A DNA stretch of 64,000 bases from Candidatus Omnitrophota bacterium (GTDB taxonomy: Bacteria > Omnitrophota > Gorgyraeia > Zapsychrales > Zapsychraceae), in assembly GCA_015233115.1 (NCBI GenBank), contig JADFYJ010000006.1, positions 65,801 through 129,800 on the forward strand, given 5' to 3'. How positions within the stretch are numbered: position 1 is the first letter of the stretch; each line of letters starts with the position of its first letter. Below, in pieces: positions 15,697 to 63,054 of the stretch. The notes under the pieces are model-generated. The model was not told the origin of the DNA and ran no database searches. It saw only the letters and a program-made list of their open reading frames with translations. The translations under genes and the position numbers were made by a program.

Positions 15697-15697
15697 A

Positions 15698-32679: not shown

Positions 32680-32710
32680 GTTTTTTGTGACTTTATTGTT
32701 TTTATGCGTT

Positions 32711-35264: not shown

Positions 35265-35394
35265 CAGAGCAAAAGCGATTGCTGGAAAAAACGATAGGCG
35301 ATATAAAATAATTTTTTTGAGGTTTTGTTTAGAGATTTTATATAATTTTTTTGTTTTTACTTTGTTACTCTGTCACTTGGTTACTTTGTTACTA
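35244..35394. repeat. Intergenic palindromic element, GTAACNGA subfamily. Forward arm 35244-35269 overlaps the uvrB 3' end; core CAAAAGCGATTGCTGG; reverse arm 35355-35394.
   Basis: AGTAACCGAGTAACAGAGTAACAGAG versus AGTAACAAAGTAACCAAGTGACAGAGTAACAAAG (reverse complement). Confidence 0.8.
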
Positions 35395-35426: not shown

Positions 35427-36197
35427 ATGTTACTAGGGATTGATATTGGAAATACCTCGATTTCATTCGGGGTAATGAGAAAAGGAAAGGTGGTTGACAA
35501 TTTCTCCATCCTTTCCAAACAAACCAAAACTGCTTTGGCTTCATCATTGGACAAGGTTTTATCCCGGATCCATAAACAATATCCCTTGATTACCCAATGT
35601 TTGATGTGCAGTGTTGTGCCCAAAATTAATTCCATTGTTATCCGCTATGTTCAAGGAATTGTGGATATTAATGTGGAACGAATTGGGAAAGATATTATCG
35701 TGCCTATTGCCAATCATTATCATGAGCCTTCACAAGTTGGGCAAGACCGTTTGCTGGTAGCTTATGCCGCGAAATGTTTATATGGGACCCCTACTGTGGT
35801 CATTGATTTAGGTACAGCCATAACTTTTGATGTGGTTTCGAAAAAAGGAACTTACGAGGGAGGAATGATTGTGCCCGGTATCCGCTTGTCAGCCGAATCG
35901 CTTTTTAAAGGAACAGCTTTACTTCCGCAATTAAAAGAATTTACCAAGCCTAAACATTTGATTGGCAAAAACACTAAAGACAGTATTTTGAGTGGTTTGT
36001 TCAACGGTTATTCCGCCATGTGCGACGGGTTAATAAAACAATTTCAGGAAATATTGGGACCCAAAACCAAGGTTATCCTTACCGGCGGTTACGCGCCATT
36101 AATCCGCAAAGGTTTGCCTCCGTATTGTGTGTATGATCAGGATTTGGTGTTTAGGGGCATGAGTATGCTAGTCTTCGGTATGAAATGTTTTAGTTGA
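35427..36197 (+). CDS. coaX: Type III pantothenate kinase.
   Basis: MLLGIDIGNTSISFGV N-terminal ASKHA motif; 256 aa. Confidence 0.8.
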   Translation: MLLGIDIGNTSISFGVMRKGKVVDNFSILSKQTKTALASSLDKVLSRIHKQYPLITQCLMCSVVPKINSIVIRYVQGIVDINVERIGKDIIVPIANHYHEPSQVGQDRLLVAYAAKCLYGTPTVVIDLGTAITFDVVSKKGTYEGGMIVPGIRLSAESLFKGTALLPQLKEFTKPKHLIGKNTKDSILSGLFNGYSAMCDGLIKQFQEILGPKTKVILTGGYAPLIRKGLPPYCVYDQDLVFRGMSMLVFGMKCFS

Positions 36198-36246
36198 CAA
36201 ATTCATTTTTTTTGGTAAATTAGCACTCTGGCGAAAGTAGTGCTAA
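36194..36246 (+). promoter_or_regulatory. groESL promoter region with a CIRCE operator TTAGCACTC-N9-TAGTGCTAA (36220-36246) downstream of a TTGACA -35 box (36194-36199).
   Basis: CIRCE consensus TTAGCACTC-N9-GAGTGCTAA matched with one mismatch; 54 bp upstream of groES. Confidence 0.7.
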
Positions 36247-36749: not shown

Positions 36750-38402
36750 ATGGCTAAACAATTAATTTATGATGATGAAGCAAGACGCGCGATATTGCGC
36801 GGCGTGGAACAATTGGCCCGCGCTGTCAAAGTGACATTAGGACCAAAAGGCCGTAATGTGGCGATTGACAAAAAATTCGGCTCACCGACTGTCACCAAAG
36901 ACGGTGTGACTGTAGCCAAAGAAGTTGAGTTAGATGACCCATTCGAAAATATGGGCGCGCAAATGGTCAAAGAAGTCGCTGAAAAAACTTCTGATATCGC
37001 TGGCGATGGTACTACCACAGCCACCATTTTGGCTGAAGCGATTTATAAGGAAGGTTTGAAAAACGTAACAGCCGGCGCTAATCCAATGGCTTTAAAACGC
37101 GGTATTGATAAAGCCGTGATTAAAGTGATTGAAAAAATTGGTAAATTAGCCAAGAAAATTGATGCCCGCAACACTAAAGAAGTTGAACAAGTGGCATGCA
37201 TCGCGGCTAACGGTGATGCTGAGATCGGTAAAAAAATTGCTGAAGCTTTCGACAAAGTAGGCAAAGATGCTCCAATTACGGTCGAAGAATCTAAAACCAT
37301 CCATACTGAATTAAAAGTGGTTGAAGGGATGCAATTCGATCAAGGATATCTTTCTCCGTATTTTTCAACAGATATGGAAAAGATGACTTGCTCAATGGAA
37401 GATCCTTTCATTTTGATCTACGAAAAAAAGATCTCCAATATTAAAGACATGCTTCCGCTTTTGGAAAAAGTCGCTAAAGCTGGCCGTTCTTTAGTCATTA
37501 TCGCTGAAGATGTGGAAGGTGAAGCATTAGCTACTTTAGTTGTGAACAATATGCGCAAAACCTTATCTTGCGTAGCTGTTAAAGCTCCGGGTTATGGCGA
37601 TCGTCGTAAGGCGATGTTGGAAGATATCGCTGTTTTGACCGGCGGCAAAGCTATTACGGAAGAATTAGGTATCAAGTTAGAAAATGTGAATGAAACTTAT
37701 TTAGGAAGCGCAAAAAAAGTGCAGGTTGATAAAGATAATACCACCATCGTAGAAGGTCACGGCGATCAAACCGCGATCAAAGGCCGTATTAAACAAATCA
37801 CCGCGCAGATTGACGCGACTGATTCTTCTTATGATAAAGAAAAATTAGTAGAGCGCAAAGCTAAATTAGCCGGTGGCGTGGCCATTATCAGTATCGGTGC
37901 TGCGACTGAAACCGAAATGAAAGAAAAGAAAGCCCGCGTAGAAGACGCGTTACATGCAACCCGCGCGGCCTTAGAAGAAGGTATTGTTCCTGGAGGCGGA
38001 GTGGCATTACTGCGCACCTTAGGTGTATTCGATACTTTGAAATTAGATGGCGACGAGAAAACCGGCGCGGAAATTGTTAAACGCGCGATAGAAGAACCGA
38101 TCCGCCAATTAGCCAAGAATGCTGGTGTCGAAGGTTCTGTGATTGTCGACAAATTAAAGAATGAAAAAGATAACATTGGTTATGACATGAACAAAGATGT
38201 TTACGGCGACATGATCGAATCCGGTATTATCGATCCGGCCAAGGTGACCCGTACTGCGTTACAAAACGCCGCATCTATCGCGTCATTATTGTTAACCACT
38301 GAAGCCTTAATTACTGACCTTCCTGAAAAAGATAAGGGCGGAATGCCGGGTGGAATGCCTCCGGGTATGGGCGGCATGGGTGGCATGGGCGGAATGATGT
38401 AA
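36750..38402 (+). CDS. groEL: Chaperonin GroEL.
   Basis: Full-length Cpn60 with a C-terminal GGM repeat tail ([10 protein letters not shown]). Confidence 0.97.
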
Positions 38403-38503
38403 AAAAAATGGTGTCTGCTCTCGACTAAAAAACATAAGACAGCGCTTTGCGCTGTCTTATGTTTTTTAAACAAGTGTTTAAAGTCGAGATCTGACACCAT
38501 TTT
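38403..38503. terminator. Compound terminator. Inner hairpin CATAAGACAGCGC-tttg-GCGCTGTCTTATG (38437-38466) with a T-run, nested inside the outer inverted repeat AAAAATGGTGTCTGCTCTCGAC / GTCGAGATCTGACACCATTTTTTT.
   Basis: Both pairings were read directly. The outer-arm motif GGTGTCTG.TCTCGA recurs at 39901-39926. Confidence 0.65.
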
Positions 38504-38504
38504 T

Positions 38505-39689
38505 TTGGAAGATAGACAAGCAACAAAAAACAAAATAACATCAACAATCGCTTCTAATCTATCTTCTCCCGTCTATTCTCTATCATCTGACAATTTAGCC
38601 ATTCCTCCAGATCTATTAAGCAAGGTCTGGATCGTTCCAGCCCACGCGAAAGTGTATGAAAACGGCTCAACTGCGTATGTGGTAGAGGCTAAATTGAAGG
38701 TCATGCTGGAAGATGAATATTTTAAAGAAAATAGAAAAGAGAAAATAGACGATAGACAAGCCACAAAAAACAAAACAACATCATCAGCCGCTTCTAATCT
38801 ATCTTCTCCCATCTATCGTCTATCATCTTTTACAAAACAAATTATCATTCCTGCCATAGAAAAAGAAGTCAATGAAGGCGCGCATTTTGCCCAGCTTCGG
38901 CAAATTTATAGCGCTATGGTTTTGGCTACCTGGTATAAACAAAGAATGAAAGAGTCTCTGCTCGGCCAAATCTTTGTTAATAAAAATAAAACCAAAGGGT
39001 TTGATACGAGCGACAAACAGATCACCCGAAAAATTTATGACCAGTATTTAGAATCTTTTAAAAAAGGTGTGGCGAATTATATTAAAGAAGAATATGACCC
39101 TCTTAAACAGGAAATGGTCAGCCGCAAATATTTTACCGGTGGAGAGGATTATGCTCAGTTGAATGAGACAACAGCAATTGTTCCTATAAGTCAAATCTCG
39201 GATCAGGATAAAGCGGTTTTAAGTCAAACGAATAACAGTTTGGTCGTAGTTTCTTTGCATGAACTGAATGTTAGTCTGAAAGGGGCGAATCAAGTTGTCA
39301 GAGAACAAGTTATTCATCCGGAAATGGTAGAAGAACTTTGGCGGCGAATTCAAGAAATTGATAGACGCTTATCTATTTCCAGAGCGGCTATGAATGGTGA
39401 AAAAGTAGCAATAACAAATATTTTTGAAGAATTATTGCGTATTATAAATTTTGATAAGAAAAATTTAACTACAGGAAAAGATCAAAAAAATCAATTAACA
39501 TTGCTAAAACGCGCTAAAATTGCGGCATTTTACGTAATTTTGAATGCCGGCTCAGATAAGATTCACCGTGTTGAAATCCGCACATTCATAAAATCCTTGA
39601 CTCTGGACCATCGGTGTTTTAAAGTTTCAAAAGTGTTATACATGGCGTATCCTTTCTGTTCTGGGCTGACATGGGTCAACCCTGGTTGA
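38505..39689 (+). CDS. Hypothetical protein carrying the same unassigned conserved domain as residues about 175-330 of the 2696-aa protein, plus an internal 82-bp in-frame duplication.
   Basis: Both proteins share LSKVWIVP, AKLKV, IPAIEK.VNEG, LRQIY, LATW, DKQ, KIY.QYL and FIKEEYDP...YFTGG. No ATG in frame near the 5' end (TTG at 38505), so the start is uncertain. Confidence 0.5.
   Translation: MEDRQATKNKITSTIASNLSSPVYSLSSDNLAIPPDLLSKVWIVPAHAKVYENGSTAYVVEAKLKVMLEDEYFKENRKEKIDDRQATKNKTTSSAASNLSSPIYRLSSFTKQIIIPAIEKEVNEGAHFAQLRQIYSAMVLATWYKQRMKESLLGQIFVNKNKTKGFDTSDKQITRKIYDQYLESFKKGVANYIKEEYDPLKQEMVSRKYFTGGEDYAQLNETTAIVPISQISDQDKAVLSQTNNSLVVVSLHELNVSLKGANQVVREQVIHPEMVEELWRRIQEIDRRLSISRAAMNGEKVAITNIFEELLRIINFDKKNLTTGKDQKNQLTLLKRAKIAAFYVILNAGSDKIHRVEIRTFIKSLTLDHRCFKVSKVLYMAYPFCSGLTWVNPG
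38507..38829 (+). repeat. Two 82-bp direct repeats (38507-38588 and 38748-38829, about 90% identical) inside the CDS. Each encodes DRQATKNK.TS..ASNLSSP.Y.LSS.
   Basis: GATAGACAAGC.ACAAAAAACAAAA.AACATCA.CA..CGCTTCTAATCTATCTTCTCCC.TCTAT..TCTATCATCT was read in both copies. Confidence 0.8.
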
Positions 39690-39946
39690 TATATCCAAAC
39701 AGAAAGATACGCCTTTTTAAAAATCTTGCAACTGGATCCCCGATTAAAGCGTTCGGGGATGACAAAGATCGAATTTACACACTTTATGGTATATCACCTT
39801 AAAAAATCAAAAGTTGACAATTGAAGGCAAAACTAATATAGTATATCTTTCCAAATAATATATATTTAGCCCTTAAAAGAGATAATAATCGCATAAACAT
39901 GGTGTCTGATCTCGATCTGACACCTTTTTTAAAATGGAGGATTTAC

Positions 39947-41107
39947 ATGGGTGAATGGATCGGGATAGACCGGCGGGCTCGTAGATGTTACGGTTTTGAT
40001 GAAATTTCGCTTGTGCCGGGCATGCAAACTATAAATCCCAATGAAGTGGATGTGACTCTTAAAATTGGTAATATGAAATTTGGCATCCCCATTATGGCTG
40101 CGGCCATGGATGGTGTGGTTGATGTGAACTTTTTGATTGCTATGGGTAAGTTAGGCGGTATTGCGGTGTTGAACTTAGACGGTGTTCAGACCCGCTATGA
40201 AGATCCCAGCCAGATTTTAAATGAAATCGCAGAAGCTTCGACTGAAAAAGCTACGGAACTTCTTCAAAAATTATATCAGCCCGCTATAAAAGAATCTTTG
40301 ATTTCAAAACGGATTGAGCAGATTAAAGCGGCGAATGTACCGGCTTTTATCAGCTGTATTCCTCAGCACGCGGAACGTTTTGGTAAAATATCTCAAGAAG
40401 CCGGGGCAGACTGCTTTGTGGTTCAATCCCAGGTATCTTCAGCCAAACATATTTCCACGGAATATAAAGTGTGTGATTACGGTGAGTTATGTTCGGGATT
40501 AAAAATTCCGGTTATGATTGGTAATGCTGTTACATACAAAATGACGTTATCTCTTTTGGAATTAGGCGCCAGCGGGGTTTTGATTGGTGTTGGTCCTGGA
40601 GCGGCATGTACGACCCGCGGGGTGTTGGGAATTGGTGTACCGCAGATTACAGCTACGATAGACGCGTCAGCAGCCCGCGATCATTATTATAAGAGGACCG
40701 GACGCTATGTTCCGATTATCACAGATGGCGGCATGCGTATAGGAGGAGAAATTTGTAAAGCTTTTGCTTCAGGTGCTGACGGGGTCATGGTCGGGTCGGC
40801 TTTTGCTAAAGCGAAAGAAGCTCCGGGCCATGGTAATCATTGGGGTATGGCTACGTCTCACGCGAATTTACCACGCGGTACACGGGTCAGGGTGGGAACG
40901 ACCGGAACTTTAGAGCAAATTCTTTTGGGACCAGCGAATGTGGATGATGGTTCACAAAATTTGGTCGGTGCTTTAAAAACGTCCATGGGATCTTTGGGTG
41001 CTAAAAATTTGAAAGAAATGCATGATGTGGAGATGATTATTGCTCCATCGATTCAGACCGAAGGAAAAGTGTTTCAGGTAGGCCAGCGGGTGGGGATGGG
41101 GAAATAG
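39947..41107 (+). CDS. IMP dehydrogenase/GMP reductase family protein without a CBS pair (GuaB-like).
   Basis: TIM-barrel IMPDH motifs (GVGPGAACTTRGVLGIGVPQ catalytic Cys loop; ITDGGMRIGGEI). SD GGAGG before the ATG at 39947; 39899-39946 lies in the hairpin repeat. Confidence 0.7.
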   Translation: MGEWIGIDRRARRCYGFDEISLVPGMQTINPNEVDVTLKIGNMKFGIPIMAAAMDGVVDVNFLIAMGKLGGIAVLNLDGVQTRYEDPSQILNEIAEASTEKATELLQKLYQPAIKESLISKRIEQIKAANVPAFISCIPQHAERFGKISQEAGADCFVVQSQVSSAKHISTEYKVCDYGELCSGLKIPVMIGNAVTYKMTLSLLELGASGVLIGVGPGAACTTRGVLGIGVPQITATIDASAARDHYYKRTGRYVPIITDGGMRIGGEICKAFASGADGVMVGSAFAKAKEAPGHGNHWGMATSHANLPRGTRVRVGTTGTLEQILLGPANVDDGSQNLVGALKTSMGSLGAKNLKEMHDVEMIIAPSIQTEGKVFQVGQRVGMGK

Positions 41108-41114
41108 TGAAACA

Positions 41115-41279
41115 GTATGTGGTATGTGGCATGTAGTATGTAGTATGTAGTATGTAGTATGTAGGGAAAAGCGATTGGTGTGAAATGCTATGGAGAACTC
41201 AGCTCTTCCTGTATAAAAATTTTTTTTATATTTTTTAATTTTTTTACTACATACGACATACTACGAACTACATACTATC
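41115..41279. repeat. Intergenic palindromic element, GTATGTRG subfamily. Forward arm 41115-41164 with 6 or more tandem TATGTAG units, core GGAAAAGCGATTGGTGTGAAATG, reverse arm 41240-41279.
   Basis: Read directly. Confidence 0.85.
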
Positions 41280-41305
41280 AAAACTATTAAATGAGGCATG
41301 CATCT

Positions 41306-43036
41306 ATGGTAAAAAAACAAGTGAAAAAAGAACAAAAAAAACAGGCAGTCGCAGCGAAAAAGCAAGTGATGAAACCCGCACAAGTCATGAAACCGGCTAA
41401 ACGTAAAGGCCTTTTTAGATCTGGCCATCATGCTGGACTTGGATCTAAGGTCAAGGTCAAAGGTTTTGGACTTTCTGTCCGGGTTAAAAAACAGAAAAGC
41501 AAAGATCTGATCATTGTGCTTGATTTTGGTTCTCAATATACTCAGCTGATTGCCCGGCGTATCCGCGAAGCTAAAGTATACAGCAAGATTGTTCCTTACA
41601 CTATTACGGTAGATGAAATAAAAGAGATGCAGCCGAAAGGGATTATTTTGTCCGGCGGGCCGATGAGCGTTTATGATCAAGGCGCGCCTATTCCTCAAAA
41701 AGGGTTATTCGAATTAGGCATTCCGGTTTTGGGTATTTGTTACGGGATGCAGGTGATTAGTCATATATTCGGTGGAAAAGTTCAGGGAAGTAAAGAACGC
41801 GAATTTGGACGCGCGGAGTTATTTGTGGATAGTAATTTAGATTTGTTCGCGAATCTACCGACGAACATGACCTGCTGGATGAGTCACAGCGATGAAATCA
41901 AGGTTATGCCAAAAGGTTTCATGAAGATTGCCCATACTCTGAACGCGGAAGTCGCGGCGATTGCTAACCGGAGTAAGAAAATATATGGGGTACAGTTTCA
42001 TCCGGAAGTTATTCACACGCAGCGCGGCGCTCAGATATTGAGCAACTTCGCGAATAGTATTTGTGGATGTTTACCTCGTTGGACCATGGATAAATTTATT
42101 GATAATGCTATCCGTTTGATTAAAGAACAGGTTAAAGATGGCAAAGTGGTGTTGGGTTTAAGCGGCGGAGTTGATTCATCCGTGGCTGCGATTTTACTTC
42201 ATAAAGCCATAGGGAACCGTTTGTATTGCATTTTTGTTGATAACGGTCTTTTGCGTAAAGATGAAGCGTCTAAAGTTCAAAAAACTTTTAAGACTAACTT
42301 TAACATGAACATGAGCACAGTGAACGCTGAAACCAATTTCTTGAAGCGGTTGAAAGGCGTGACTGATCCGGAAGAAAAACGTAAAATTATTGGCGATGAA
42401 TTTATCAATGTGTTCACGGAAAAAGCCAATAAGATTAAGAATGTAAAATTTTTAGCTCAAGGCACATTATATCCTGACGTGATCGAATCCATATCACCCA
42501 AAGGCGGGCCTTCAGCTGTGATCAAGTCGCATCACAATGTGGGCGGGCTTCCTAAGTCTTTGAAAATGGAATTGATTGAGCCTTTTAGAGAATTGTTTAA
42601 AGATGAAGTGCGAATTATCGGCAAACATTTGGCTATGCCGGATACAGTGTTGAACCGTCAGCCATTCCCAGGACCTGGATTAGGAATACGTATTTTGGGC
42701 GAGGTTACGCGCGAACGTTTGGAGATTTTGCGCGAAGCCGATGAACGGGTGGTGGAAGAGATTAAAAAAGCTGGTTTATATAATCAAGTATGGCAGTCAT
42801 TCGCGGTATTGCTTCCGGTCAAGACTGTTGGAGTCATGGGTGACCAGCGTACATATGAAAATGTCATCGCGATCCGCTGCGTGACTAGTATTGACGGCAT
42901 GACAGCTGACTGGGCGCAAATTCCTTATGAAGTGTTAGGAAAAATATCCAATCGCATTATCAATGAAGTCAAAGGCGTGAATCGTGTCGTATATGACATT
43001 AGCTCGAAACCGCCGGCAACGATTGAGTGGGAATAG
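41306..43036 (+). CDS. guaA: GMP synthase (glutamine-hydrolysing) with a Lys-rich N-terminal extension of about 65 aa.
   Basis: GATase (GICYGMQ), ATP-PPase SGGVDSSV, C-terminal dimerisation domain. SD GAGG before the ATG at 41306; the canonical GuaA start ([12 protein letters not shown]) is about 70 aa in. Confidence 0.9.
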
Positions 43037-43042
43037 GAAAAA

Positions 43043-43467
43043 GTAACCGAGTAACCGAGTAACAGAGTGACAAAGAAAAAACGATTAATGCTAAAAACGT
43101 CTATGGGAAAAAGGTTACAAGATATAGGCAAAAAAATATATTTGGATGATAGAAAACAAGCAATAGGAAAAATTGTATTTAATTTGTTAATTTTGTGATT
43201 TTGGTTTAAATTTTATATAAGATTATTAATTATTTATATTATTGTTTTTATCGGTTGTTTTGGGTTTTTATGGTTGCTATAATTTTTAAATTTTATTTTA
43301 GGTTTGTAAGGCTATTTTTTTAATTTTTGGGTTATTGATAACCTTTCACTTTGTTGCTTTTTGAGGGGATTTTTGTAATTTTTTAAAGCTTTATTTTTTT
43401 TTGTTTTTTTAAAGTTTTATTATAAATTTTGCTCTGTTACTCGGTTACTCGGTTACTTTGTTACTCT
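43043..43467. repeat. Intergenic palindromic element, GTAACNGA subfamily, with a long (about 350 bp) AT-rich spacer. Forward arm 43043-43075, core AAAAAACGATTAATGC, reverse arm 43428-43467.
   Basis: GTAACCGAGTAACCGAGTAACAGAGTGACAAAG versus its inverse. Occupies the entire guaA-dnaE intergenic region. Confidence 0.8.
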
Positions 43468-43489
43468 TTTACGAGCTGCCCATTTTAAT

Positions 43490-48707: not shown

Positions 48708-48718
48708 GTGAACGTCGC

Positions 48719-54963: not shown

Positions 54964-57900
54964 ATGTTTAAGCGTGTCCTTAGTTTAATTTTAAGTATTA
55001 CTTTTATATTTTCCGCGTTTGCGCCCTATGCCAATGCGGTCGAACCGCTTTTTGCCGCACCCGCGGTCATGCCATTACTTGCACCGGCCAACATAGAAGT
55101 GCCTTTGCTGAAAGGATTGCGGATCGATCCGGCTTCTCCTTTAAAAATAGATTTCATTTTGGAGGCAGGGAAATCTGAACAAAATGCCAATTATTTAAAA
55201 ATTGAATCTAACCGTTTAATTAAATATTTCCTCGCCGGATTAACTGTCCCAGCTAATGAACTTTGGGTCAACTTAAATCCTAAAGAGCCAAACCGCATCA
55301 CGAGTGAAAAATTCGGCCAAACCGAAATGGGCCGCGACCTCTTAGCCCAGGATTACGTCCTCAAACAATTAAGCGCGAGTCTGCTAAACCCGGACAATGA
55401 AACCGGCCGAAAATTCTGGGATGGTGTGTATAAAAATGTTTCCTCTCCCCTCCGGGGAGAGGGCAGGGTGAGGGGTTTAGATATCCCCATTGGAATTTTA
55501 AGCAAAGTCTGGATCGTCCCAGGTGAAGCTGTAGTGGTCGAAAAAGAGAATGCGGCGTATGTCAAAAGCGCAAAATTAAAAGTGTTATTTGAGGGGGCGG
55601 AGAATACTCAATTAATCAAACAGTTAATTCTTCCCGCCATTGAAAAACAAGTCAACGAAGGCTCCGAATTCTCCCTGCTTCGTCAAATATATCATTCTTT
55701 GATTTTGGCAACATGGATGAAACGTAAAATTGGATTATTACAAAAAAATTATATTAACCAAAACAAAATCTCCGGCATCGACGTTGCCGACAAACAAGCC
55801 AAACAAAAAATTTACGCCCAATATCTCAAAGCCTTTACGGATGGCCTGCATAAATTTATTAAAGAAGAATACGACCCCCAAACCCGGCAGATCGTAGCCC
55901 GTCAATATTTCACCGGAGGAGCAGGATTTGAAAATTTAGACTCAGCCATGGTGGTCAACACTATGCAGGGACCTGTGGTTGCTCAATTTGAAAAACCGTA
56001 TGAAGTTGACGTAGATTTGAAACCGCAAAATTCTGTTGCCATTGATCAGGCCGCATTAGCCGGAACTTTAAAAATGGGGAAAGGGATAAAAGGGTTTTTA
56101 GACCGGGTTTTTGTTGCAGAGGAAGATAAGGAAAAAAAAGAGCGGACGCGCGTGTTAATTGAAAGTTTTTTAAACTCCGATTTTGAGCCAGCAGTCAAAA
56201 TGTTTGAAGAAATAAATCAATTAAGCAATGACAAAAAAATTATTTTAGCCCGCCAGTTATTGAAAACCGCGCCTGGCGCGTTAGCAGAAAATTTAACCTT
56301 AGAGCAATTTTTAATGTTAAAACCGAATGATAATAATGCGTCTTTCTTTCATATTTTTGGACGCTTTATTCTGGCCTTTCATTCTGAGTACAAAGCTGAA
56401 TACCTGAAAATGTATCAAGGTAATCCTTTAGTTTTAAATAATGATATCACCCGTTGGAAAACAGTTTACGCGCTTCTTTGGGCGGCGGAAATTTTAGGCT
56501 CAGACCAAGCCCTGCTGGCGCGTCAAAATATGGACGATATATCGCGCGATTTAATCAATAAACATCAAGCCTTAAGTGACGATGAAATAGCAGCTTTTGA
56601 AAAGGAACTGCCGAATTTTAATTGGCGAATGGCAACTGATGTGCCTTGGGAAGAAGTCATCAGGTCGCCTTCACTACAACCATATGGCCCTACGGATGAT
56701 GAACAATCAGTGCGGCGGTGGGGTTCAATTTATAATCAACAAAATTATTGGAATAATAATGTTGTGGTCCGCAGATATTTTTTGTTTTTAGTCAGAGATA
56801 TGATTCTTAATCCGGAATTTTTTACCCATGATTACGTTCAGCGGATATCGCAGATGCATTCGGCCCTGCGAAGAGCACGCGGTCTTTATGCCTCTGATTC
56901 AGGGCATGATGATGGTTTGCAAACAGGAATTTTAAATTCAACGTCAGAACAAAATAAAAAATTATTCTTAAGCTTAAAAGAATTATTGCAAGAACATAAT
57001 GGCGTTAACAAAAATCTATCTAAAGAAATATCTCAAATTGCAGGATATTATTTGGCTCTTTTACAAGGCTATCTATTCGGTCCTGGACGGGGTAACAACT
57101 CGCTTTACATGAATATGGTGAATGCTCTGATACGGCTCAATAGCTTAAATGGGATAAGTCACGAAAACCTTGATATGGTAATTGCCCTTGTGCATAACAA
57201 ACCAGAAAAATTTCTTTATCCGCGTTTCTTGTCCGAGCTTAAAAAAAGAAATCCGGAAAATAAAGCAGCCCAAAATTTATCCATCAAAGATATTCTGCCT
57301 GAATCAGATCAAGCGATGGTGCGGGATTCTAGAGATCAAGAACGCCTGGCAAAAAGAAAAAATTTATTCAGGACTTTTGATCTGGAAGGCATGCCTCCTG
57401 AAGAAATGCCGCCAGAATTGTTTGAAAACATTAAAGAGCCTTTAACCGCCAAGCAAAAAGAAAACTTAAAGAAGCAATTAGCCGATCATTTCATGATTTG
57501 GGGCTTAGAATCATTTCTTACCATGGAACACCAGGATGAAAGAGTCCTGCAATTTGCGCAAAAACAAGGCTTTAAAATAAATAAAGCATTTTTAGAGCAA
57601 GTTATTAGGGAAATGTTCGCTGAAAAAGAAAAATATTTTACGGCCAAAGTGGTAGAGATCGGAACATCCAACGCAATAAATACAGATCGTGCCTCTTTAG
57701 CCACCACAACTTCAAACGATATTAATCAAGACGACTCATGGGCAGAGAGGTTCGCTTCTTATAGGCATAAAAGAATTATTGTAGCTGATGATCACGCGGA
57801 TTTTCGTCAGGATATGCAGGGAATTTTGTCTAGATATTTTAACAAAGTGACTATAGCTTCATCCATCAACGAAGTAATGGAAGAGTACGCGGCGATGAAA

Positions 57901-60900
57901 GCGGATCAGGTGGCTGATGATGATATTTTAATTTTGATAGATTTTCAGTTTGCAGAGGGACACAATGCGTTTGAATTGGTCAATCAACTGCGCGTTGAAC
58001 GGAATTTTACCGGTAAAATCGGCATTGTTTCCGGCAGTATGGTGTCAGAACTTAATATTCCGGGGTACGATCCTGTTCATCAGGATTTGAATAATGAGGT
58101 CAAGATACGTTATGGTTTGGATTATATTCAGAAACAGCCTGCCGGATTTAAAGATAATTTGTTTGGTTTAATGGATAGGCAATTTAAACAAAAGCCTTAC
58201 CAAAAGCCAGAGGGTTTGGAGCCGTTGGTTGTAGACCATGAACTACATGGAGTTCATGGCCGTGAACCCAGCGTGGTTCACGGTTCTAATTTGGGGTATT
58301 TTTTAAGCGGCATCAATGATAGGGAAATGCATATTGGGGAAGAGTTAGAGAAATCTCTTAATGAAGTGTCTTTGGGGCAGTCTTTAAATACTGGCGCAGT
58401 GCAAAGTTTAATTGAAGAAATCAAAACAGGTATTAAATTTTCGAATGTGCGTCAAGGATTTAATGGATCAGTTGATTCCTATGCTTTTCGTCAAAGTCTC
58501 CACGATCATAAAAATAATATCGCAAGGCTAGGCAGTAAAATTGAAGACCTTCAAGGGCAAATAACAGCTGAGTCGAATGCTGCTCTGGATTCAGTATTAT
58601 CCCGTATTCATGATATGGTAAACGTGTATTTTAATTATACGGATTGGGTCTACCGCATGTTGATTTATTGCGGCCGCCTTGAGTATATTGAGATGATGGA
58701 GCCGCTGCTGCAGTCTGCCATTGTGTCTTACCAAAAAGAATTCGAACGTCGTCATTCCAATCAATTCGATCCTGACGAAGGGATTGCTCAGGCTCTTAAT
58801 CATTTGAAAAACACCAGCGCGGAATTCCGTGGTCAGCACATCGAACCTGCCATGAAATCGTGGGGGATATTATTTAAGGAATATCAGGCTGTCGAAGAAG
58901 GCATGAATAAAATTTTGGGCGATAAAATGAGTTCAAACCAAAACGCGTTTTTAAAATCATTTTCTGACAAATTAAATTTATTTTTCGGCCAATATCTCGT
59001 TACATTCGGAGCCAATGATTTGAATGGCGATTTGCCAGGTAAAGCACTAGGCAGGGTCGTGGTTTTAAGCGGCGATTCATGGGAGGCCGAACAATTTTTT
59101 AAAGATAAGGTTCAGGAAAGCGATATTGTGGTTGTTCGTCAGGATTATTCATGGATTACAGCGGCACGCAGTAAAGCCTCTGCCATTATTTTTGCTCAAT
59201 CCGGCGGTCAGCATATTATCACTCAAGCTCGGATATCAGGAATTCCATTGATATTTTTGCCCAACGCGGATGAGTTTTTTGAGGCAGTTAGGAAAGAGTA
59301 CGAAAGACAGGGAAAGAACAAAGATATTTTTGTAAGAGTAGAAGTTGAAGATGGAAAAGGACGGATTATTCCGGTCAATGAAGTAGGAGAAAAAGTAAAC
59401 CCAATTGACTCTTTACAGGAAATTCAAAAAGTAGAGGTTGATAAGGTCGATGGTTACTCTGGCCCGGATATCATCAGTTCAGAGAGTCCTCTTGATGATT
59501 ACGCGGATACCATGGAAGAATTGCGACCCTGGATGGGAACTAAAGCGCTAAATCAATACATCGTAAAAAAAGACAAAATTTCCGACGTACCGCAGTTTTT
59601 GATGCAAACCTTCCGATTAATGGAACGGTGTTTTAAATTTTCCGACAAATATTATGAAATATTAGATAAGATCCGCGGTTTTTCCGACACATCTTCAAGA
59701 CATGAAGTGGAAACAGTTTTAAAGGAAATGCAAGATTATATTTTCTCTCAGTCGCTCAATGAATTGGATGAAATGTTTTATAAGGCCAGAGCCATTGAAT
59801 GGATTTTTGAAAATCCCTTGGCTATTCGTCTGATTACTAATGATCAGGATTTGGAAAAATATCCCGGTGTGGGCGCGGGGACGTATCTATCACTCGAAAA
59901 TATCCGGGTGAAAAATGTGCAAGAATTAAAGCCCTATTTAAAAGAAGTTTACGCGTCTATGTGGAGTTATGAAGCGTATAAACAGCGGCTGGACCGCGGC
60001 ATCCCTCAGGATGCGGTTTACGGCGCGATTGAAATTCAAGAATATAAATCTGACGCGATATATTCTATGCACATTGAGACGCAAGTTGAAGGCAATCCGG
60101 ATATTTTAAAAATTATGTTTATGCCCGGAGCTGCCCGGTCTATTTCTGCCAAAGATCCACAGTATGGTGGAGAACCGTTTATTTTTTATTTTGATAAAAA
60201 AGCGCAAAATGGAAAAGGCGGATTGATTGGCTGGAGCGATCCCCGAACGCAATATCATCCGGTTAAGGCAGAAAAGGCATATTACGCGTCTTTCGAAAAT
60301 AAAGATCCTCAAAGTTTTAATATTAACAATTATCCTGAACTCAGGATCATGTTTAAATCAAAAAATATGAATGTCAGGCCTTTTATCAACCAATTTGAAG
60401 ATGCTGCCCGCAAGGCGATGAAAATGGAAAAACGTTTTCAATCTCCGCGTGAAATAGAGGCTACTTTAGACTTAACTGGATTTTCTGCCCATCAATGCCG
60501 GAGAATGAAAGTCGTGGGGCCTATTGATATTTCAGCTATTCCTGCAAATGCAGAACAAGATGTGGAATTTTTGGAAAGGGTGATTAGCGAATTAAAGCAA
60601 CGCTCTCCGGAAATCGGTGAATTTATTGAAAAACATGGGGTAAAAGAATTTGATCCGCGAATTGTTTCTGGCGAAGAACTGGAAGAGGTATTACAGGGCT
60701 TACGCATTTTAGATCGATCAAATACTTTAAAAACCCCTTGGGTTTTTTCAATGCTTTTAATTACGGCTGCAGGTGGATCGGAAAGAAAGTTTGATCAGGA
60801 TGCGACGAGAATACTTAAGCTTTTACAAAATAAAGAGTTTGATAGTGTGCGTGGCTCGCTAATGTTTTTGATGGCCTATTTTGTTTTTGGCGGGCATGAA

Positions 60901-63054
60901 TTTATTTGGGATTGGTTGGAATATTTGTCAAACAATGAACCTGAATTGTTTAAACATTTAGCTCCCTATTTTATTTTAAGCGACAGAATAATCAATGCTA
61001 GCCATGCTTGCCGGGATTTAATGCTGTTTCGTTTGTTATCTCCTGAATTTTATGACCGAAGAGAAATTCAAAAAAAGCCACTAAGAGAAAAATTTATTCA
61101 GGCTTTGTCCGTAGATGATATCAGCCATCTTTTAAATAATGCTTTGAAATTTCAACAATCTACTGGAAGTGATTTTAAGGATAAGTATCTCCTGGATTTG
61201 CTAAAAACCCATCCTGATTTTACAGCTATTACCCAATTGGAGAATTTTAAGAAATTATATCCAGAGGAATCAACAGTATCTGTTAAAGAACCGTCGTTGC
61301 CCAAAGATGTCGTTCTTCTCAAAAATGTACTTGAAGAAATTAAAGTAAAGTCTCCGGCTATAAAAAATTTTATTGAACGTTATTCTGGACGGAAGTTCAG
61401 CATGGACGACGTATCTTTTCAAGAGATTAAAAAGATTACTGTTGAAGTGTTCGATCTCACCCAAAGCATTGAAGATCCCAAGATGCAAAGTATTGATGGA
61501 ACATTTTTAATATATTTAATTCATAAATTTGGCAGTGAATTAGGAGATTTTGAAAAGACAAGTGAAGATATTTGTATAGCGCTTCAGCACAAAGATTTTG
61601 ATAATGTCCGCGCTCCCGTGTTGTTTTTAATTTCTTTTTTTGGTTTTAATGGACATGCGTATATGTTTCGGTTTTTGGATAGGTTAGTTGACCGGCGGCC
61701 AGAATTATTTAAAGAATTGATTCCATATTTTATCCTCTCAGATAATTTGATCCAGGGAGTTTATAATGCTCACGGCTCTTTTGGGTTGGAAATTGAAAAT
61801 CTTATGTCTGATCGCATGATCAATGATGCTTGGGGGACAAATCAGGGGAAGAACATTCAGCAGACCTTTATAAATGAATTAACTCTAGAACAGATTGAAA
61901 AATTTCTCGGAAACGCTGTTACCATCAGAGAAACGCATACCAACTATGATACCCAGCGTTTGTTGCTATTGCTTCAAAACCGAAATGATTTCAAGCAGAT
62001 TACAGTGTTGAATAATTTTAAACAACTTTACCCGGATTATAAAGAGCCGGGACCAGATGTCATGACGGATCAAAATAATTCTGGTCTCTCGTCTGAAAAA
62101 ATTGCTTGGCTGCATAAATTAATTGATAATATGAAAAACATGGATTCGGACGACTTTTTAAAAGATTTCTTGGAGAGGCACGCGGGTGGTTCTTTTGATT
62201 TAAAAAATATTTCTCCGGACGATTTTGAGTTAATACGTTTTTGGTTTTGGAACGTGCTTAAGAATTTTAAAAATCAACATGTTGAGGTTGACATGCCTAC
62301 CATGTTTTTAGCATTCGCGATTTATATTTCAGGAGAGAGGCTGGATGATTATAAAAAGGTTTGGACGGATATTCTTCAAACATTGCAAAGCCCTGAGTTT
62401 GACGATGTCCGGGGACCGATAATGTTTTTAATGTCATTTTTTGTTGAAGGCGGACACGAATTTATCTTAGAATGGCTGGATGACCTTTCTGTTCAAAATC
62501 CGGATTTGTTTAAAAAAATAGTGCCATATTTTATCGTGCCGAATGAGATTGTTTATCTCATGCAGGAGCAAAGCACTGGATTTTGGAAGCATAAAGATTT
62601 TATACTTTATCGGCTTTTGTTTGAAAAAGACGCGGAAAGAAGATGGGGAAATCTGCAAAAAAGGTTTATCGCGGATTTAAGCGTTGAAGATGTGAGGAAA
62701 TTGATGGACAATGTGGAAGTTTTTGGAAAACTGGATGAAAAAAATTATAAAGTCACTTTGCTTCACCTGATAGAGCCGCACCAGGAATTTTTAACTATAA
62801 AAGGAACAACAGAATTTAAAAAACTCTATCCGTATTCAGATCAAGCGCAGTTGGCCGATGAAAAAAATAAAGGCGGTATTGACTTAAACACCGAAACCAT
62901 GAATGTGAAAGTCGAATCTGATTCCGCAGTAATTGCTGATCAGGGAAAATTCGATCAGGCCCTTTTAGCCTCTATCCAAAGCATGACAGGTTTTGAACCC
63001 GTCATCGTTTCCATCCGGCCATTAACCAACGTTAACGCGTTTTTTGGCATATGA
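54964..63054 (+). CDS. Giant (2696 aa) secreted or anchored multidomain protein. In order: signal peptide, an unassigned domain shared with the 38505 protein, a receiver-like domain, a PEP-utilizer swivel-His-like segment, a degenerate PPDK_N-like ATP-grasp-like segment, and three C-terminal tandem repeats of about 240 aa.
   Basis: Uninterrupted 8091-nt ORF. MFKRVLSLILSITFIFSAFAPYANA signal. REC-like RIIVADDHADFR...ILILIDFQFAEGHNAFELVNQLR...KIGIVSG (about aa 934-1035). SGGQHIITQARISGIPLIF (aa about 1410-1430). KEVYASMWSYEAYKQRLDRGI...AIEIQEY...YSMHIET (aa about 1640-1720). Repeats at about aa 1870-2105, 2112-2360 and 2375-2630. Confidence 0.7.
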   Translation: MFKRVLSLILSITFIFSAFAPYANAVEPLFAAPAVMPLLAPANIEVPLLKGLRIDPASPLKIDFILEAGKSEQNANYLKIESNRLIKYFLAGLTVPANELWVNLNPKEPNRITSEKFGQTEMGRDLLAQDYVLKQLSASLLNPDNETGRKFWDGVYKNVSSPLRGEGRVRGLDIPIGILSKVWIVPGEAVVVEKENAAYVKSAKLKVLFEGAENTQLIKQLILPAIEKQVNEGSEFSLLRQIYHSLILATWMKRKIGLLQKNYINQNKISGIDVADKQAKQKIYAQYLKAFTDGLHKFIKEEYDPQTRQIVARQYFTGGAGFENLDSAMVVNTMQGPVVAQFEKPYEVDVDLKPQNSVAIDQAALAGTLKMGKGIKGFLDRVFVAEEDKEKKERTRVLIESFLNSDFEPAVKMFEEINQLSNDKKIILARQLLKTAPGALAENLTLEQFLMLKPNDNNASFFHIFGRFILAFHSEYKAEYLKMYQGNPLVLNNDITRWKTVYALLWAAEILGSDQALLARQNMDDISRDLINKHQALSDDEIAAFEKELPNFNWRMATDVPWEEVIRSPSLQPYGPTDDEQSVRRWGSIYNQQNYWNNNVVVRRYFLFLVRDMILNPEFFTHDYVQRISQMHSALRRARGLYASDSGHDDGLQTGILNSTSEQNKKLFLSLKELLQEHNGVNKNLSKEISQIAGYYLALLQGYLFGPGRGNNSLYMNMVNALIRLNSLNGISHENLDMVIALVHNKPEKFLYPRFLSELKKRNPENKAAQNLSIKDILPESDQAMVRDSRDQERLAKRKNLFRTFDLEGMPPEEMPPELFENIKEPLTAKQKENLKKQLADHFMIWGLESFLTMEHQDERVLQFAQKQGFKINKAFLEQVIREMFAEKEKYFTAKVVEIGTSNAINTDRASLATTTSNDINQDDSWAERFASYRHKRIIVADDHADFRQDMQGILSRYFNKVTIASSINEVMEEYAAMKADQVADDDILILIDFQFAEGHNAFELVNQLRVERNFTGKIGIVSGSMVSELNIPGYDPVHQDLNNEVKIRYGLDYIQKQPAGFKDNLFGLMDRQFKQKPYQKPEGLEPLVVDHELHGVHGREPSVVHGSNLGYFLSGINDREMHIGEELEKSLNEVSLGQSLNTGAVQSLIEEIKTGIKFSNVRQGFNGSVDSYAFRQSLHDHKNNIARLGSKIEDLQGQITAESNAALDSVLSRIHDMVNVYFNYTDWVYRMLIYCGRLEYIEMMEPLLQSAIVSYQKEFERRHSNQFDPDEGIAQALNHLKNTSAEFRGQHIEPAMKSWGILFKEYQAVEEGMNKILGDKMSSNQNAFLKSFSDKLNLFFGQYLVTFGANDLNGDLPGKALGRVVVLSGDSWEAEQFFKDKVQESDIVVVRQDYSWITAARSKASAIIFAQSGGQHIITQARISGIPLIFLPNADEFFEAVRKEYERQGKNKDIFVRVEVEDGKGRIIPVNEVGEKVNPIDSLQEIQKVEVDKVDGYSGPDIISSESPLDDYADTMEELRPWMGTKALNQYIVKKDKISDVPQFLMQTFRLMERCFKFSDKYYEILDKIRGFSDTSSRHEVETVLKEMQDYIFSQSLNELDEMFYKARAIEWIFENPLAIRLITNDQDLEKYPGVGAGTYLSLENIRVKNVQELKPYLKEVYASMWSYEAYKQRLDRGIPQDAVYGAIEIQEYKSDAIYSMHIETQVEGNPDILKIMFMPGAARSISAKDPQYGGEPFIFYFDKKAQNGKGGLIGWSDPRTQYHPVKAEKAYYASFENKDPQSFNINNYPELRIMFKSKNMNVRPFINQFEDAARKAMKMEKRFQSPREIEATLDLTGFSAHQCRRMKVVGPIDISAIPANAEQDVEFLERVISELKQRSPEIGEFIEKHGVKEFDPRIVSGEELEEVLQGLRILDRSNTLKTPWVFSMLLITAAGGSERKFDQDATRILKLLQNKEFDSVRGSLMFLMAYFVFGGHEFIWDWLEYLSNNEPELFKHLAPYFILSDRIINASHACRDLMLFRLLSPEFYDRREIQKKPLREKFIQALSVDDISHLLNNALKFQQSTGSDFKDKYLLDLLKTHPDFTAITQLENFKKLYPEESTVSVKEPSLPKDVVLLKNVLEEIKVKSPAIKNFIERYSGRKFSMDDVSFQEIKKITVEVFDLTQSIEDPKMQSIDGTFLIYLIHKFGSELGDFEKTSEDICIALQHKDFDNVRAPVLFLISFFGFNGHAYMFRFLDRLVDRRPELFKELIPYFILSDNLIQGVYNAHGSFGLEIENLMSDRMINDAWGTNQGKNIQQTFINELTLEQIEKFLGNAVTIRETHTNYDTQRLLLLLQNRNDFKQITVLNNFKQLYPDYKEPGPDVMTDQNNSGLSSEKIAWLHKLIDNMKNMDSDDFLKDFLERHAGGSFDLKNISPDDFELIRFWFWNVLKNFKNQHVEVDMPTMFLAFAIYISGERLDDYKKVWTDILQTLQSPEFDDVRGPIMFLMSFFVEGGHEFILEWLDDLSVQNPDLFKKIVPYFIVPNEIVYLMQEQSTGFWKHKDFILYRLLFEKDAERRWGNLQKRFIADLSVEDVRKLMDNVEVFGKLDEKNYKVTLLHLIEPHQEFLTIKGTTEFKKLYPYSDQAQLADEKNKGGIDLNTETMNVKVESDSAVIADQGKFDQALLASIQSMTGFEPVIVSIRPLTNVNAFFGI

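What the first reader, a model, noticed from the sequence alone, without database searches (positions are those of the whole stretch)
38403..39937. The paralog gene sits between copies of a GGTGTCTG(C/A)TCTCGA inverted-repeat motif, inserted between groEL and guaB-like/guaA
Upstream, the groEL terminator hairpin is nested inside the inverted repeat AAAAATGGTGTCTGCTCTCGAC / GTCGAGATCTGACACCATTTTTTT (38403-38503). Downstream, the same motif forms a back-to-back hairpin GGTGTCTGATCTCGATCTGACACC (39901-39926), right before the IMPDH-family gene. The gene is therefore bounded on both sides by copies of one palindromic motif. groEL followed directly by gua genes would be an unremarkable neighbourhood. 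So the 38505-39689 gene looks like a cassette captured between duplicated hairpins.
Basis: seen in the sequence. Interest (0 to 1): 0.55.

Follow-up and report, generated by a model that had tools for sequence, protein, structure and literature searches.

The report
Duplicated terminator hairpin around gene fragment
Two copies of a small terminator-like hairpin really do lie on either side of a gene inserted between groEL and guaB3 in this Omnitrophota genome, but the gene is a beheaded fragment and the second hairpin sits inside the neighbour's own leader, so this looks like a local rearrangement rather than a mobile hairpin-bounded cassette.

Summary
GGTGTCTGNTCTCGA occurs three times in 64 kb against 0.16 expected, and only at 38410, 38484(-) and 39901. 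The upstream arms enclose a perfect 20-bp groEL terminator. The downstream copy is a 24-nt hairpin plus T6. The two copies are homologous and share the same U·U mismatch.

Synteny in about 30 related Omnitrophota shows that groEL directly followed by guaB3 is the ancestral state, so the 394-codon ORF is an insertion. However:
- The ORF is a 5'-truncated fragment of a large Omnitrophota secreted-protein family. It lacks the signal peptide and about 180 residues, and it has its own terminator.
- The insertion lies between the groEL terminator and the conserved guaB3 promoter. Hairpin copy 2 is inside the native guaB3 5'UTR, not at the insert's edge.
- Relatives with full-length family genes at the same site have no flanking repeats.
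- The motif was found nowhere else: not in the window, 890 kb of other loci, JGI metagenomes or IMG/VR.

Most likely this is a local duplication of a terminator-type palindrome, in a genome unusually rich in inverted repeats that bracket intergenic spacers (12 per 64 kb, about 0 in relatives). Interest is low to moderate.

The parts
36220..36246 (+). CIRCE operator upstream of groES (context: an ordinary HrcA-type groESL operon)
   Evidence: One mismatch to TTAGCACTC-N9-GAGTGCTAA
36750..38402 (+). groEL
   Evidence: Pfam Cpn60_TCP1, E 8.7e-79
38402..38506 (+). H1: compound hairpin. It fills the whole spacer from the groEL stop to the ORF394 start and ends in T7.
   Evidence: -57.5 kcal/mol, z -10.7 (a coarser 8-shuffle control gave -16.7); the widest pair is 38402..38506
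38402..38431 (+). L1 arm of H1 (A-run + TGGTGTCTGCTCTCGAC)
   Evidence: I3
38426..38468 (+). Inner perfect 20-bp hairpin followed by T6. This is the likely native groEL intrinsic terminator.
   Evidence: I10. Relatives have a GC hairpin plus T-run at the same distance after groEL.
38477..38506 (+). R1 arm of H1 (GTCGAGATCTGACACCA + T7)
   Evidence: I3
38505..39689 (+). ORF394 (HQL26_04835, MBF0478787.1). It is a 5'-truncated fragment of an Omnitrophota secreted-protein family, with no signal peptide, no recognisable RBS and a TTG 'start' inside the T-run.
38508..38588 (+). 81-nt direct repeat, copy 1. It starts directly at the end of the H1 T-run, so this is a rearrangement junction.
   Evidence: (D1), 89% identical to copy 2
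38748..38828 (+). 81-nt direct repeat, copy 2. This is the native linker between 'MLEDEY' and 'IIPAIEKEVNEG'.
39644..39718 (+). ORF394's own terminator-like hairpin (a 16-17 bp stem spanning the stop codon) plus T5
   Evidence: -31.1 kcal/mol, z -5.3
39814..39842 (+). Native guaB3 promoter, TTGACA-17-TATAGT
   Evidence: 11/12 match. The -35 and -10 columns are invariant across 13 genomes.
39901..39930 (+). H2: 24-nt hairpin GGTGTCTGATCTCGATCTGACACC plus T6, inside the guaB3 5'UTR
39947..41107 (+). GuaB3-family IMP-dehydrogenase-related gene (RBS GGAGGA at 39936-39941)
   Evidence: TIGR01304, 426 bits against a cutoff of 342; Pfam IMPDH
41291..43036 (+). guaA (GMP synthase)
54964..63054 (+). 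2696-aa full-length family member. It has a signal peptide, the N-domain and the C-terminal GGIDLN...IRPL motif. It is the 'paralog' partner of ORF394.

Best explanation
A roughly 1.3-kb piece of a gene sits between the groEL terminator and the native guaB3 promoter in this lineage only. The piece is the 3' two-thirds of a member of a large Omnitrophota secreted-protein family, together with that gene's own terminator. The repeated 'motif' is two copies of one terminator-type palindromic module (H). H1 wraps the groEL terminator into a nested 105-nt hairpin ending in U7. H2 is a compact 24-nt version plus U6, located inside the guaB3-guaA 5'UTR. The copies most likely arose by local duplication during the same rearrangement, or series of rearrangements, that beheaded the inserted gene and duplicated 81 nt inside it. 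They did not arise by hairpin-mediated capture of a cassette. On RNA, H1 would act as a double intrinsic terminator insulating downstream DNA from the heavily transcribed groESL operon. H2 would act as a further read-through barrier or attenuator in front of guaB3-guaA. Shown: the sequences, the homology of the copies, their folding, the insertion, the truncation and the promoter orthology. Inferred: terminator activity, the timing, and the duplication mechanism.
For: The motif is non-random and confined to this locus. The copies are homologous and share the U.U mismatch. Both are followed by T-runs. Direct groEL-guaB3 adjacency is the widespread state on the GuaB3 tree, including the window's own clade: L002, L006, L007 and L011, plus L001 and L004 with spacers of about 500 nt. 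In relatives the groEL terminator T-run lies 5-15 nt before the TTGACA of the guaB3 promoter. In the window these two landmarks are 1.3 kb apart, and H2 lies beyond the promoter. In 96 of 119 homologs the match to ORF394 starts more than 150 residues into the subject (median 181). No trace of the missing N-terminus is nearby. The first copy of the 81-nt repeat abuts the H1 T-run. The H arms are 94% identical and the 81-nt repeat about 90%, so the two duplications could be of similar age. ORF394 has its own strong terminator hairpin, so H2 is not needed as its terminator. ORF394 has lower GC (0.35-0.39) and a flat GC skew compared with its neighbours.
Against: No mechanism is demonstrated that would copy a 25-45-nt hairpin to a point 1.5 kb away inside a UTR. 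A terminator-like hairpin downstream of a gene's own conserved promoter is an odd place for a neutral duplicate. H2 is only moderately stable (-11.2 kcal/mol), and the UTR as a whole shows no unusual structure (z 0.08). The rest of the source MAG could not be retrieved, so a dispersed repeat family cannot be excluded. ORF394 remains open for 394 codons, which suggests either a recent truncation or some retained function.
Confidence: 0.5

Rival explanations
1. H is a small non-autonomous mobile palindromic element (REP/REPIN-, MITE- or PATE-like) that landed twice near groEL. One copy lies around or next to the groEL terminator and one lies in the guaB3 leader. ORF394 is an unrelated insertion between them.
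For: The genome carries a lineage-specific load of inverted repeats that bracket intergenic spacers. There are 12 in 64 kb, against about 1 in roughly 300 kb of syntenic DNA from 30 relatives, and they fall into recurring arm families. H1 has TIR-like arms of 24-30 nt. H is absent from the orthologous spacers of relatives. A conserved mismatch in the stem is reminiscent of hairpins recognised by Y1 transposases (general knowledge, not tested here).
Against: There are only two loci in 64 kb, and they are 1.5 kb apart. There is no target-site duplication. The likely native groEL terminator sits inside H1, which a single insertion cannot explain unless the element brought the terminator with it. 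No transposase was found among the window ORFs tested. There are no hits in JGI metagenomes or IMG/VR, apart from one chance-like match in a high-GC contig.
Confidence: 0.25
2. One reading: the gene is a cassette captured by recombination at duplicated hairpins (integron-attC-like or IS200/IS605-PATE-like). H1 and H2 are the cassette boundaries.
For: Direct copies of one imperfect hairpin lie on both sides of a gene that is absent from the closest relatives. The same intergenic site holds different large genes in other Omnitrophota lineages.
Against: H2 lies inside the native guaB3 5'UTR, downstream of the orthologous promoter. The cargo is a beheaded fragment. L014, L018, L023 and L012 have inserts at the same site without flanking repeats. 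No integrase or transposase was found nearby. The arms contain no attC core (GTTRRRY), by direct reading of the sequence. The motif is unique to this locus in everything searched.
Confidence: 0.08
3. The copies form a trans-acting regulatory pair. An RNA derived from the groEL 3'UTR (H1) base-pairs with the guaB3 5'UTR (H2) next to its RBS, coupling chaperonin expression to GMP synthesis.
For: By direct reading of the sequence, R1 is complementary to L2 at 17 of 18 positions, and L1 to R2 similarly. H2 ends 10 nt before the Shine-Dalgarno sequence.
Against: Both partners are locked in stable intramolecular hairpins. Nothing comparable exists in about 30 relatives. There is no Rfam match. The idea rests on complementarity that any duplicated palindrome would show.
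Confidence: 0.04
4. The arrangement is an assembly artefact or a chance resemblance. The MAG contig would be chimeric at the hairpin, or the motif copies coincidental.
For: The source is a metagenome-assembled genome. The truncated ORF abuts a hairpin. Family genes often sit at contig ends in other assemblies (many 'partial' entries).
Against: The shared exact stretches are 17 nt or shorter, below the k-mer sizes usually used by metagenome assemblers (general knowledge, not checked for this MAG). Flanking synteny (coaX-groES-groEL ... guaB3-guaA-dnaE) is intact. Chance is excluded by the shuffles.
Confidence: 0.03

Closest known systems
Tandem or nested Rho-independent terminators and 5'UTR attenuator hairpins
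   Same: Each copy is a GC-footed stem followed by a U-run. H1 sits at the 3' end of groEL and adds an outer stem plus U7 around an inner perfect terminator. H2 is a stem plus U6 in a leader.
   Different: H2 has no detectable alternative (antiterminator) fold, leader peptide or riboswitch aptamer. The two hairpins are sequence homologs of each other, which ordinary terminators are not.
REP / REPIN elements (with RAYT transposases)
   Same: They are short imperfect palindromes in extragenic space. A compact single hairpin (H2) coexists with a larger hairpin made of two inverted arms (H1). The genome is rich in other families of intergenic inverted repeats.
   Different: Only two copies were seen. 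No RAYT was identified. The H1 arms are not themselves palindromes.
IS200/IS605-derived PATEs and integron attC cassettes
   Same: Direct copies of an imperfect hairpin with a conserved mismatch lie on either side of a gene.
   Different: There is no Y1 transposase or integrase. There is no attC core. The right-hand hairpin lies inside native UTR beyond a native promoter. The cargo is a gene fragment.
Orphan 5'-truncated modules of polymorphic surface- or toxin-gene families (rhs/cdiA orphans)
   Same: It is a 5'-truncated copy that keeps part of a conserved N-terminal region plus a divergent C-terminus. A full-length family member lies in the same genome region, 15 kb away.
   Different: It is only 37% identical to the resident full-length gene, too diverged for homologous recombination. 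It is not adjacent to that gene. No immunity-like partner is evident.

Membership tests
Intrinsic (Rho-independent) terminator | Stable stem-loop immediately followed by a U/T tract | tested here: met
   H1 inner hairpin: perfect 20 bp plus T6. H1 outer stem plus T7: -57.5 kcal/mol. H2: -11.2 kcal/mol plus T6.
Intrinsic (Rho-independent) terminator | Located at the 3' end of a transcription unit | tested here: inconclusive
   H1 meets this: it lies directly after the groEL stop. H2 does not: it lies about 60 nt downstream of the conserved guaB3 -10 and 10 nt before the RBS. ORF394 has a separate terminator at 39644-39718.
REP/REPIN | Many dispersed extragenic copies in the genome | tested here: not met
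   There are only two loci in 64 kb. The rest of the genome was not retrievable, so this is tested within the window only.
REP/REPIN | Cognate RAYT (Y1 transposase) gene | not testable with these tools
   None was found among 17 window ORFs scanned. The full MAG is unavailable.
MITE | Terminal inverted repeats | tested here: met
   H1 arms are 30 nt and 87% complementary.
MITE | Target-site duplication and empty sites in relatives | tested here: inconclusive
   No clear TSD is visible in the sequence. The motif is absent from relatives, but their spacers cannot be aligned at the nucleotide level.
Integron gene cassette (attC) | attC with R''/R' core sites (RYYYAAC / GTTRRRY) and a nearby IntI integrase | tested here: not met
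   The arms read GGTGTCTGMTCTCGA / TCGAGATCTGACACC, with no core site. The neighbours are uvrB, coaX, groESL, guaB3, guaA and dnaE.
IS200/IS605 / PATE | Subterminal hairpins at both ends, together with a Y1 TnpA somewhere in the genome and multiple copies | tested here: inconclusive
   Direct hairpin copies are present. However, the right-hand one lies inside native UTR. No TnpA was seen in the window, and copy number elsewhere is unknown.
Omnitrophota signal-peptide + N-domain secreted/giant-protein family (unnamed, no Pfam) | N-terminal signal peptide and a complete conserved N-domain of about 400 aa | tested here: not met
   ORF394 matches only the second half of the domain, and homolog matches start at a median subject residue of 181. 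It has no signal peptide and no C-terminal GGIDLN motif. It is a fragment of a family member, not an intact member.
Riboswitch / known cis-regulatory RNA | Match to an Rfam covariance model | tested here: not met
   There is no gathering-score hit. Only sub-threshold miRNA-like hairpin matches were found.

The most novel reading that the evidence does not exclude
H1 and H2 are the low-copy tip of a lineage-specific system of mobile elements that bracket intergenic spacers with inverted repeats. Such structures occur 12 times per 64 kb here and are essentially absent from 30 related genomes. In this reading the elements carry terminators and promoters, and through hairpin-guided (Y1-transposase, REPIN or PATE-like) events they can drag along or truncate neighbouring DNA. 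That would give Omnitrophota a route for shuffling fragments of their giant-protein N-domain genes into housekeeping operons.
Probability: 0.1. Interest if true: 0.6.

Novelty: new member of a known kind. Interest (0 to 1): 0.3.

Why it matters
As it stands, the finding matters little. It documents one lineage-specific insertion of a decayed paralog, plus a duplicated terminator-like palindrome, in an uncultured Omnitrophota genome. Two side results are more useful. First, the groEL|guaB3 spacer is a recurrent landing site for large secreted-protein genes across Omnitrophota, which bears on how their expanded giant-protein families spread. Second, this genome, unlike about 30 relatives, has filled its intergenic spacers with families of inverted repeats. 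That could be a tractable case of recent invasion by a MITE- or REPIN-like element, or of a new insulating RNA architecture.

Tried and rejected
- **Rfam.** A gathering-threshold scan of the whole window and an E<=10 scan of 38300-40050 gave only tRNA-Gly and sub-threshold miRNA-like hairpin matches. A riboswitch or known sRNA is therefore rejected.
- **Source MAG.** I tried to obtain more of it through exact-protein look-ups (guaB3, first and last window genes, P0043 from the same MAG). None is on record, so the genome-wide copy number of H could not be measured.
- **Genome-contig scan.** This returned relatives, the best at 84% amino-acid identity, but not the source genome.
- **Motif scans.** The H2-type pattern gave 0 hits in JGI metagenomes and 0 in IMG/VR. 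The H1-type pattern gave one hit, L084. This is a 1-kb high-GC contig with a 40-nt perfect inverted repeat that happens to share the 15-nt core. I judged it a chance match, because a palindromic pattern effectively specifies only about 13 independent bases.
- **Closest homologs' contexts.** P0004 (L081/L082) looked like one protein in two contexts. It proved to be the same locus at 99.5% identity with a frameshifted gene. P0002 sits on a 4-kb contig and is uninformative.
- **Mobile-element collections.** There are no phage matches. Plasmid matches are limited to distant hits (21-30% identity) on Streptomyces megaplasmids.
- **Similarity between the inner groEL terminator stem and the H arms** (AGACAG/CTGTCT versus AGACAC/GTGTCT). 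An 8/10 match is expected by chance at this number of comparisons, so I dropped it.
- **Apparent similarity of the right flanks** (TGGAAGAT versus TGGAGGAT, the RBS). GAAGATAGACAAGC belongs to the 81-nt internal repeat of ORF394, so the resemblance to the guaB3 RBS region is probably coincidental.
Full report
**Source and layout**

The 394-codon ORF at 38505-39689 is identical to MBF0478787.1 (HQL26_04835). This is a hypothetical protein of a Candidatus Omnitrophica/Omnitrophota MAG, on a 149-kb contig. The window has 40.7% GC.

Around the finding, all on the + strand, lie:
- uvrB and coaX;
- a CIRCE operator at 36220-36246;
- groES;
- groEL at 36750-38402;
- ORF394;
- a GuaB3-family IMPDH-related gene at 39947-41107 (TIGR01304, 426 bits);
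- guaA and dnaE.

**1. The observation**

The motif GGTGTCTGNTCTCGA, allowing up to 2 mismatches, occurs at 38410(+), 38484(-) and 39901(+) and nowhere else in 64 kb. Shuffles give 0.16 matches, and none of 100 shuffles reaches three.

Upstream, a 30-nt inverted repeat at 38402-38431 / 38477-38506 is 87% complementary. It encloses a perfect hairpin with 20-nt arms at 38426-38468. The whole 105-nt groEL-ORF394 spacer folds as one nested hairpin of -57.5 kcal/mol (z -10.7) that ends in U7. It is the most stable spacer per nucleotide in the window.

Downstream, GGTGTCTGATCTCGATCTGACACC at 39901-39924 folds at -11.2 kcal/mol (z -3.5) and is followed by U6.

The two structures, H1 and H2, are homologous rather than merely similar:
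- L1/L2 and R1/R2 are each 16/17 identical.
- Both stems carry a U·U mismatch directly after the same 6-bp GGUGUC/GACACC foot.
- With the H1 loop insert removed, the alignment scores 63, against 25.8±5.1 for shuffles of the uncollapsed comparison.

The only correction is that H2 ends at 39924, not 39926.

**2. What the gene is**

ORF394 has no Pfam, NCBIfam or PHROG match. It belongs to a very large Omnitrophota family: 500 hits were returned, many of them 'partial' genes at contig ends.

Full-length members have a signal peptide, a conserved N-domain of about 400 residues and a variable remainder. The longer ones end in a GGIDLN…ITPI-type motif. The 2696-aa ORF at 54964-63054 in this window is such a member, and ORF394 residues 7-268 are 37% identical to its residues 147-362.

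ORF394 is a fragment of a family gene:
- Its conserved part begins at 'KVWIVP', around residue 33.
- In 96 of 119 homologs the match to ORF394 starts more than 150 residues into the subject, with a median of 181.
- The signal peptide and the first half of the N-domain are missing. They are not found anywhere nearby.
- Its first 27 codons are an 81-nt copy (89% identical) of its own internal linker, 240 nt downstream.
- That copy begins exactly where the H1 T-run ends, which marks a rearrangement junction.
- The 'start' is a TTG inside the T-run, with no recognisable RBS.
- The 3' end looks natural. A 16-17-bp stem spans the stop codon and is followed by U5 (-31.1 kcal/mol, z -5.3).
- GC (0.35-0.39) and GC skew (about 0) differ from the flanking genes.

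**3. Is it an insertion?**

A genome-contig scan with GuaB3 returned about 30 Omnitrophota loci. The best is 84% identical at the protein level, and the source genome itself is not in the collection.

The order coaX-groES-groEL-guaB3-guaA-dnaE is conserved. Twelve loci have groEL followed by guaB3 after only 200-300 nt. On a neighbour-joining tree of GuaB3 this direct adjacency is the widespread state. That includes the deepest Omnitrophota branch and the window's own clade.

In those genomes the groEL terminator T-run lies 5-15 nt before the -35 of a promoter, TTGAC-N17-TATATTA. The -35 and -10 columns of that promoter are invariant in a 13-genome alignment that includes the window. In the window it is TTGACA-17-TATAGT at 39814-39842.

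The insertion therefore lies between 38506 and about 39810.

The site is a hot spot. L014 and L018 carry full-length family genes there (1289 and 1039 aa). L012, L015/16, L020 and L023 carry other large ORFs. These genomes fall in separate clades. ORF394 is closer to an unlinked homolog (P0002, 55%) than to the L014 gene (40%) or the L018 gene (35%). The insertions were therefore independent.

**4. Is it a hairpin-bounded cassette?**

Four results argue against this.
- H2 is not at the insert's edge. It lies about 60 nt downstream of the conserved -10 and 10 nt before the guaB3 RBS, inside the native 5'UTR. That UTR is 105 nt from the -10 to the ATG, much as in relatives. The interval from H1 to H2 therefore includes native regulatory DNA.
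- The cargo is a beheaded gene with its own terminator, so H2 is not its terminator.
- In L012, L014, L018 and L023 the two spacers flanking the inserted genes share no significant direct or inverted repeat.
- The motif is absent elsewhere. It was not found (up to 2 mismatches) in 890 kb of fetched loci, in JGI metagenomes, or in IMG/VR. The one exception is a chance-like hit in a high-GC contig.

No recombinase or transposase lies among the neighbouring ORFs tested. By direct reading of the sequence, the arms carry no attC core.

**5. Genomic context of the hairpins**

A whole-window repeat search shows that this genome habitually brackets intergenic spacers with inverted repeats. A self-BLAST finds 12 such structures, with arms of at least 22 nt lying 20-500 nt apart. 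That is 1.9 per 10 kb. H1 is one of the 12. The same method finds about one in roughly 300 kb of syntenic DNA from 30 relatives. RNA folds place the widest pair across nearly the whole spacer in 11 of 26 spacers.

Several arm families recur, built from octamer GTAACNGA, heptamer GTATGTR, CCAAAAACC/ATCAACC, and a GGGGCGATCTCCCGATCGCCC palindrome. Many of these elements share a core, AAARCGATTNNTG, just after the left arm. It occurs 6 times against 0.26 expected, always on the + strand, and only twice in about 900 kb of other loci. H1 lacks that core, so it is related to these elements only by architecture.

This context makes two origins plausible: local copying of palindromic modules, or activity of small palindromic elements. 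It does not show that H is mobile.

**6. Most likely account (confidence about 0.5)**

A family gene, or a fragment of one, landed between the groEL terminator and the guaB3 promoter. A rearrangement removed or excluded its 5' third, and the break lies at the terminator's T-run. That event, or one close in time, duplicated 81 nt inside the gene and copied the H palindrome. The repeat identities are similar (about 90% for the 81-nt repeat, 94% for the H arms), which is consistent with similar ages.

Functionally, H1 would be a nested double terminator after the heavily transcribed groESL operon. H2 would be an additional read-through barrier or attenuator in front of guaB3-guaA. The terminator activities and the duplication mechanism are inferred, not shown.

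The rival explanations are:
- a REP/REPIN/MITE/PATE-like mobile palindrome that landed twice (0.25);
- a trans-pairing regulatory link between the groEL 3'UTR and the guaB3 5'UTR (0.04);
- an assembly artefact or chance (0.03).

**7. Comparison with known systems, and novelty**

The elements behave like intrinsic terminators (stem plus U-run). They resemble REP/REPIN or PATE hairpins in form, but the defining features of those families could not be met or tested here: copy number, a cognate transposase and target-site duplication. Integron attC membership fails on both sequence and context. ORF394 resembles orphan 5'-truncated modules of polymorphic gene families, but it is too diverged (37%) from the resident full-length gene to recombine with it.

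I rate this a new member of a known kind: a duplicated terminator-type palindrome beside a decayed paralog. Interest is low to moderate (0.3). The genome-wide inverted-repeat phenomenon noticed in passing is more unusual than the finding itself.

**Dead ends**

- More of the source MAG could not be obtained.
- Two Omnitrophota giant-gene papers do not contain the terms 'intergenic', 'hairpin' or 'inverted repeat' at all.

Noticed in passing
window 273-405, 1695-1971, 4184-4315, 8862-9073, 14486-14652, 15734-15828, 18058-18223, 25480-25694, 35242-35387, 38402-38506, 41131-41277, 43038-43469: There are twelve inverted-repeat pairs with arms of at least 22 nt lying 20-500 nt apart. Eleven lie in intergenic spacers and bracket them; the pair at 8862-9073 falls inside the ORF at 8582-9595. 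That is 1.9 per 10 kb, against about one in roughly 300 kb of syntenic DNA from 30 related Omnitrophota. This is a lineage-specific feature. The guaA|dnaE spacer is 220-390 nt longer here than in relatives, which would fit insertions.
   Followed up: partly
window 1692-1736/1930-1974, 14479-14517/14616-14663, 35239-35277/35346-35393, 43038-43083/43427-43469, 32696-32750, 53269-53316 (family A); 18052-18093/18164-18224, 25474-25515/25635-25695, 41109-41171/41216-41277 (family B): The arms are tandem short repeats: octamer AGTAACMG in family A and heptamer GTATGTR in family B. The purine-rich or GT-rich arm is always the one after the upstream stop codon, and its complement lies just before the next RBS. 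Family A left arms, and one family B arm, put stop codons in all three frames. The uvrB stop codon (35262-35264) lies inside such an arm.
   Followed up: partly
window 15791, 25514, 35272, 41168, 43078 (and variants at 1729, 14512, 18092): A conserved core, AAARCGATTNNTG, lies directly after the left arm of family A and B elements (before the right arm at 15791). It occurs 6 times against 0.26 expected, always on the + strand. It occurs only twice, inside genes, in about 900 kb of other loci. Its function is unknown, and it has no Rfam match.
   Followed up: partly
window 268-309/380-407, 15729-15770/15803-15830, 48718-48759: A REP-like palindrome, GTAGGGGCGATCTCC(C/T)GATCGCCCGC, occurs as inverted doublets and once as a singlet. 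At 15697-15912 it is nested inside a second inverted repeat made of AATAGGC-type repeats.
   Followed up: no
L012, L014, L015/L016, L018, L020, L023 (between groEL and guaB3): The groEL|guaB3 spacer is a recurrent landing site for large ORFs (591-1289 aa) in separate Omnitrophota clades. L014 and L018 carry full-length members of the ORF394 family there.
   Followed up: yes
[not shown]
   Followed up: partly
window 39056-39070 vs 39920-39934: A 15-nt exact inverted match links ORF394's conserved 'FKKGV' codons (TTTTAAAAAAGGTGT) with the 3' half of H2 plus its T-run. It is probably a low-complexity coincidence.
   Followed up: no
L084 1-125 (JGI contig Ga0136612_10192069): An unrelated high-GC contig carries a perfect 40-nt inverted repeat whose inner 17 nt (TGGTGTCGGATCTCGAC) nearly equals the H1 arm. 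I judged it a chance match.
   Followed up: partly
L081 1767-3721 / L082 2861-4823: The closest homolog, P0004, is a frameshift-split family gene in two independent ENA assemblies of the same locus, which are 99.5% identical. Family genes appear prone to disruption, or to assembly error.
   Followed up: partly
window 36220-36246: A CIRCE element with one mismatch lies between a sigma-70-like promoter (36194-36221) and groES. This is ordinary HrcA regulation.
   Followed up: yes
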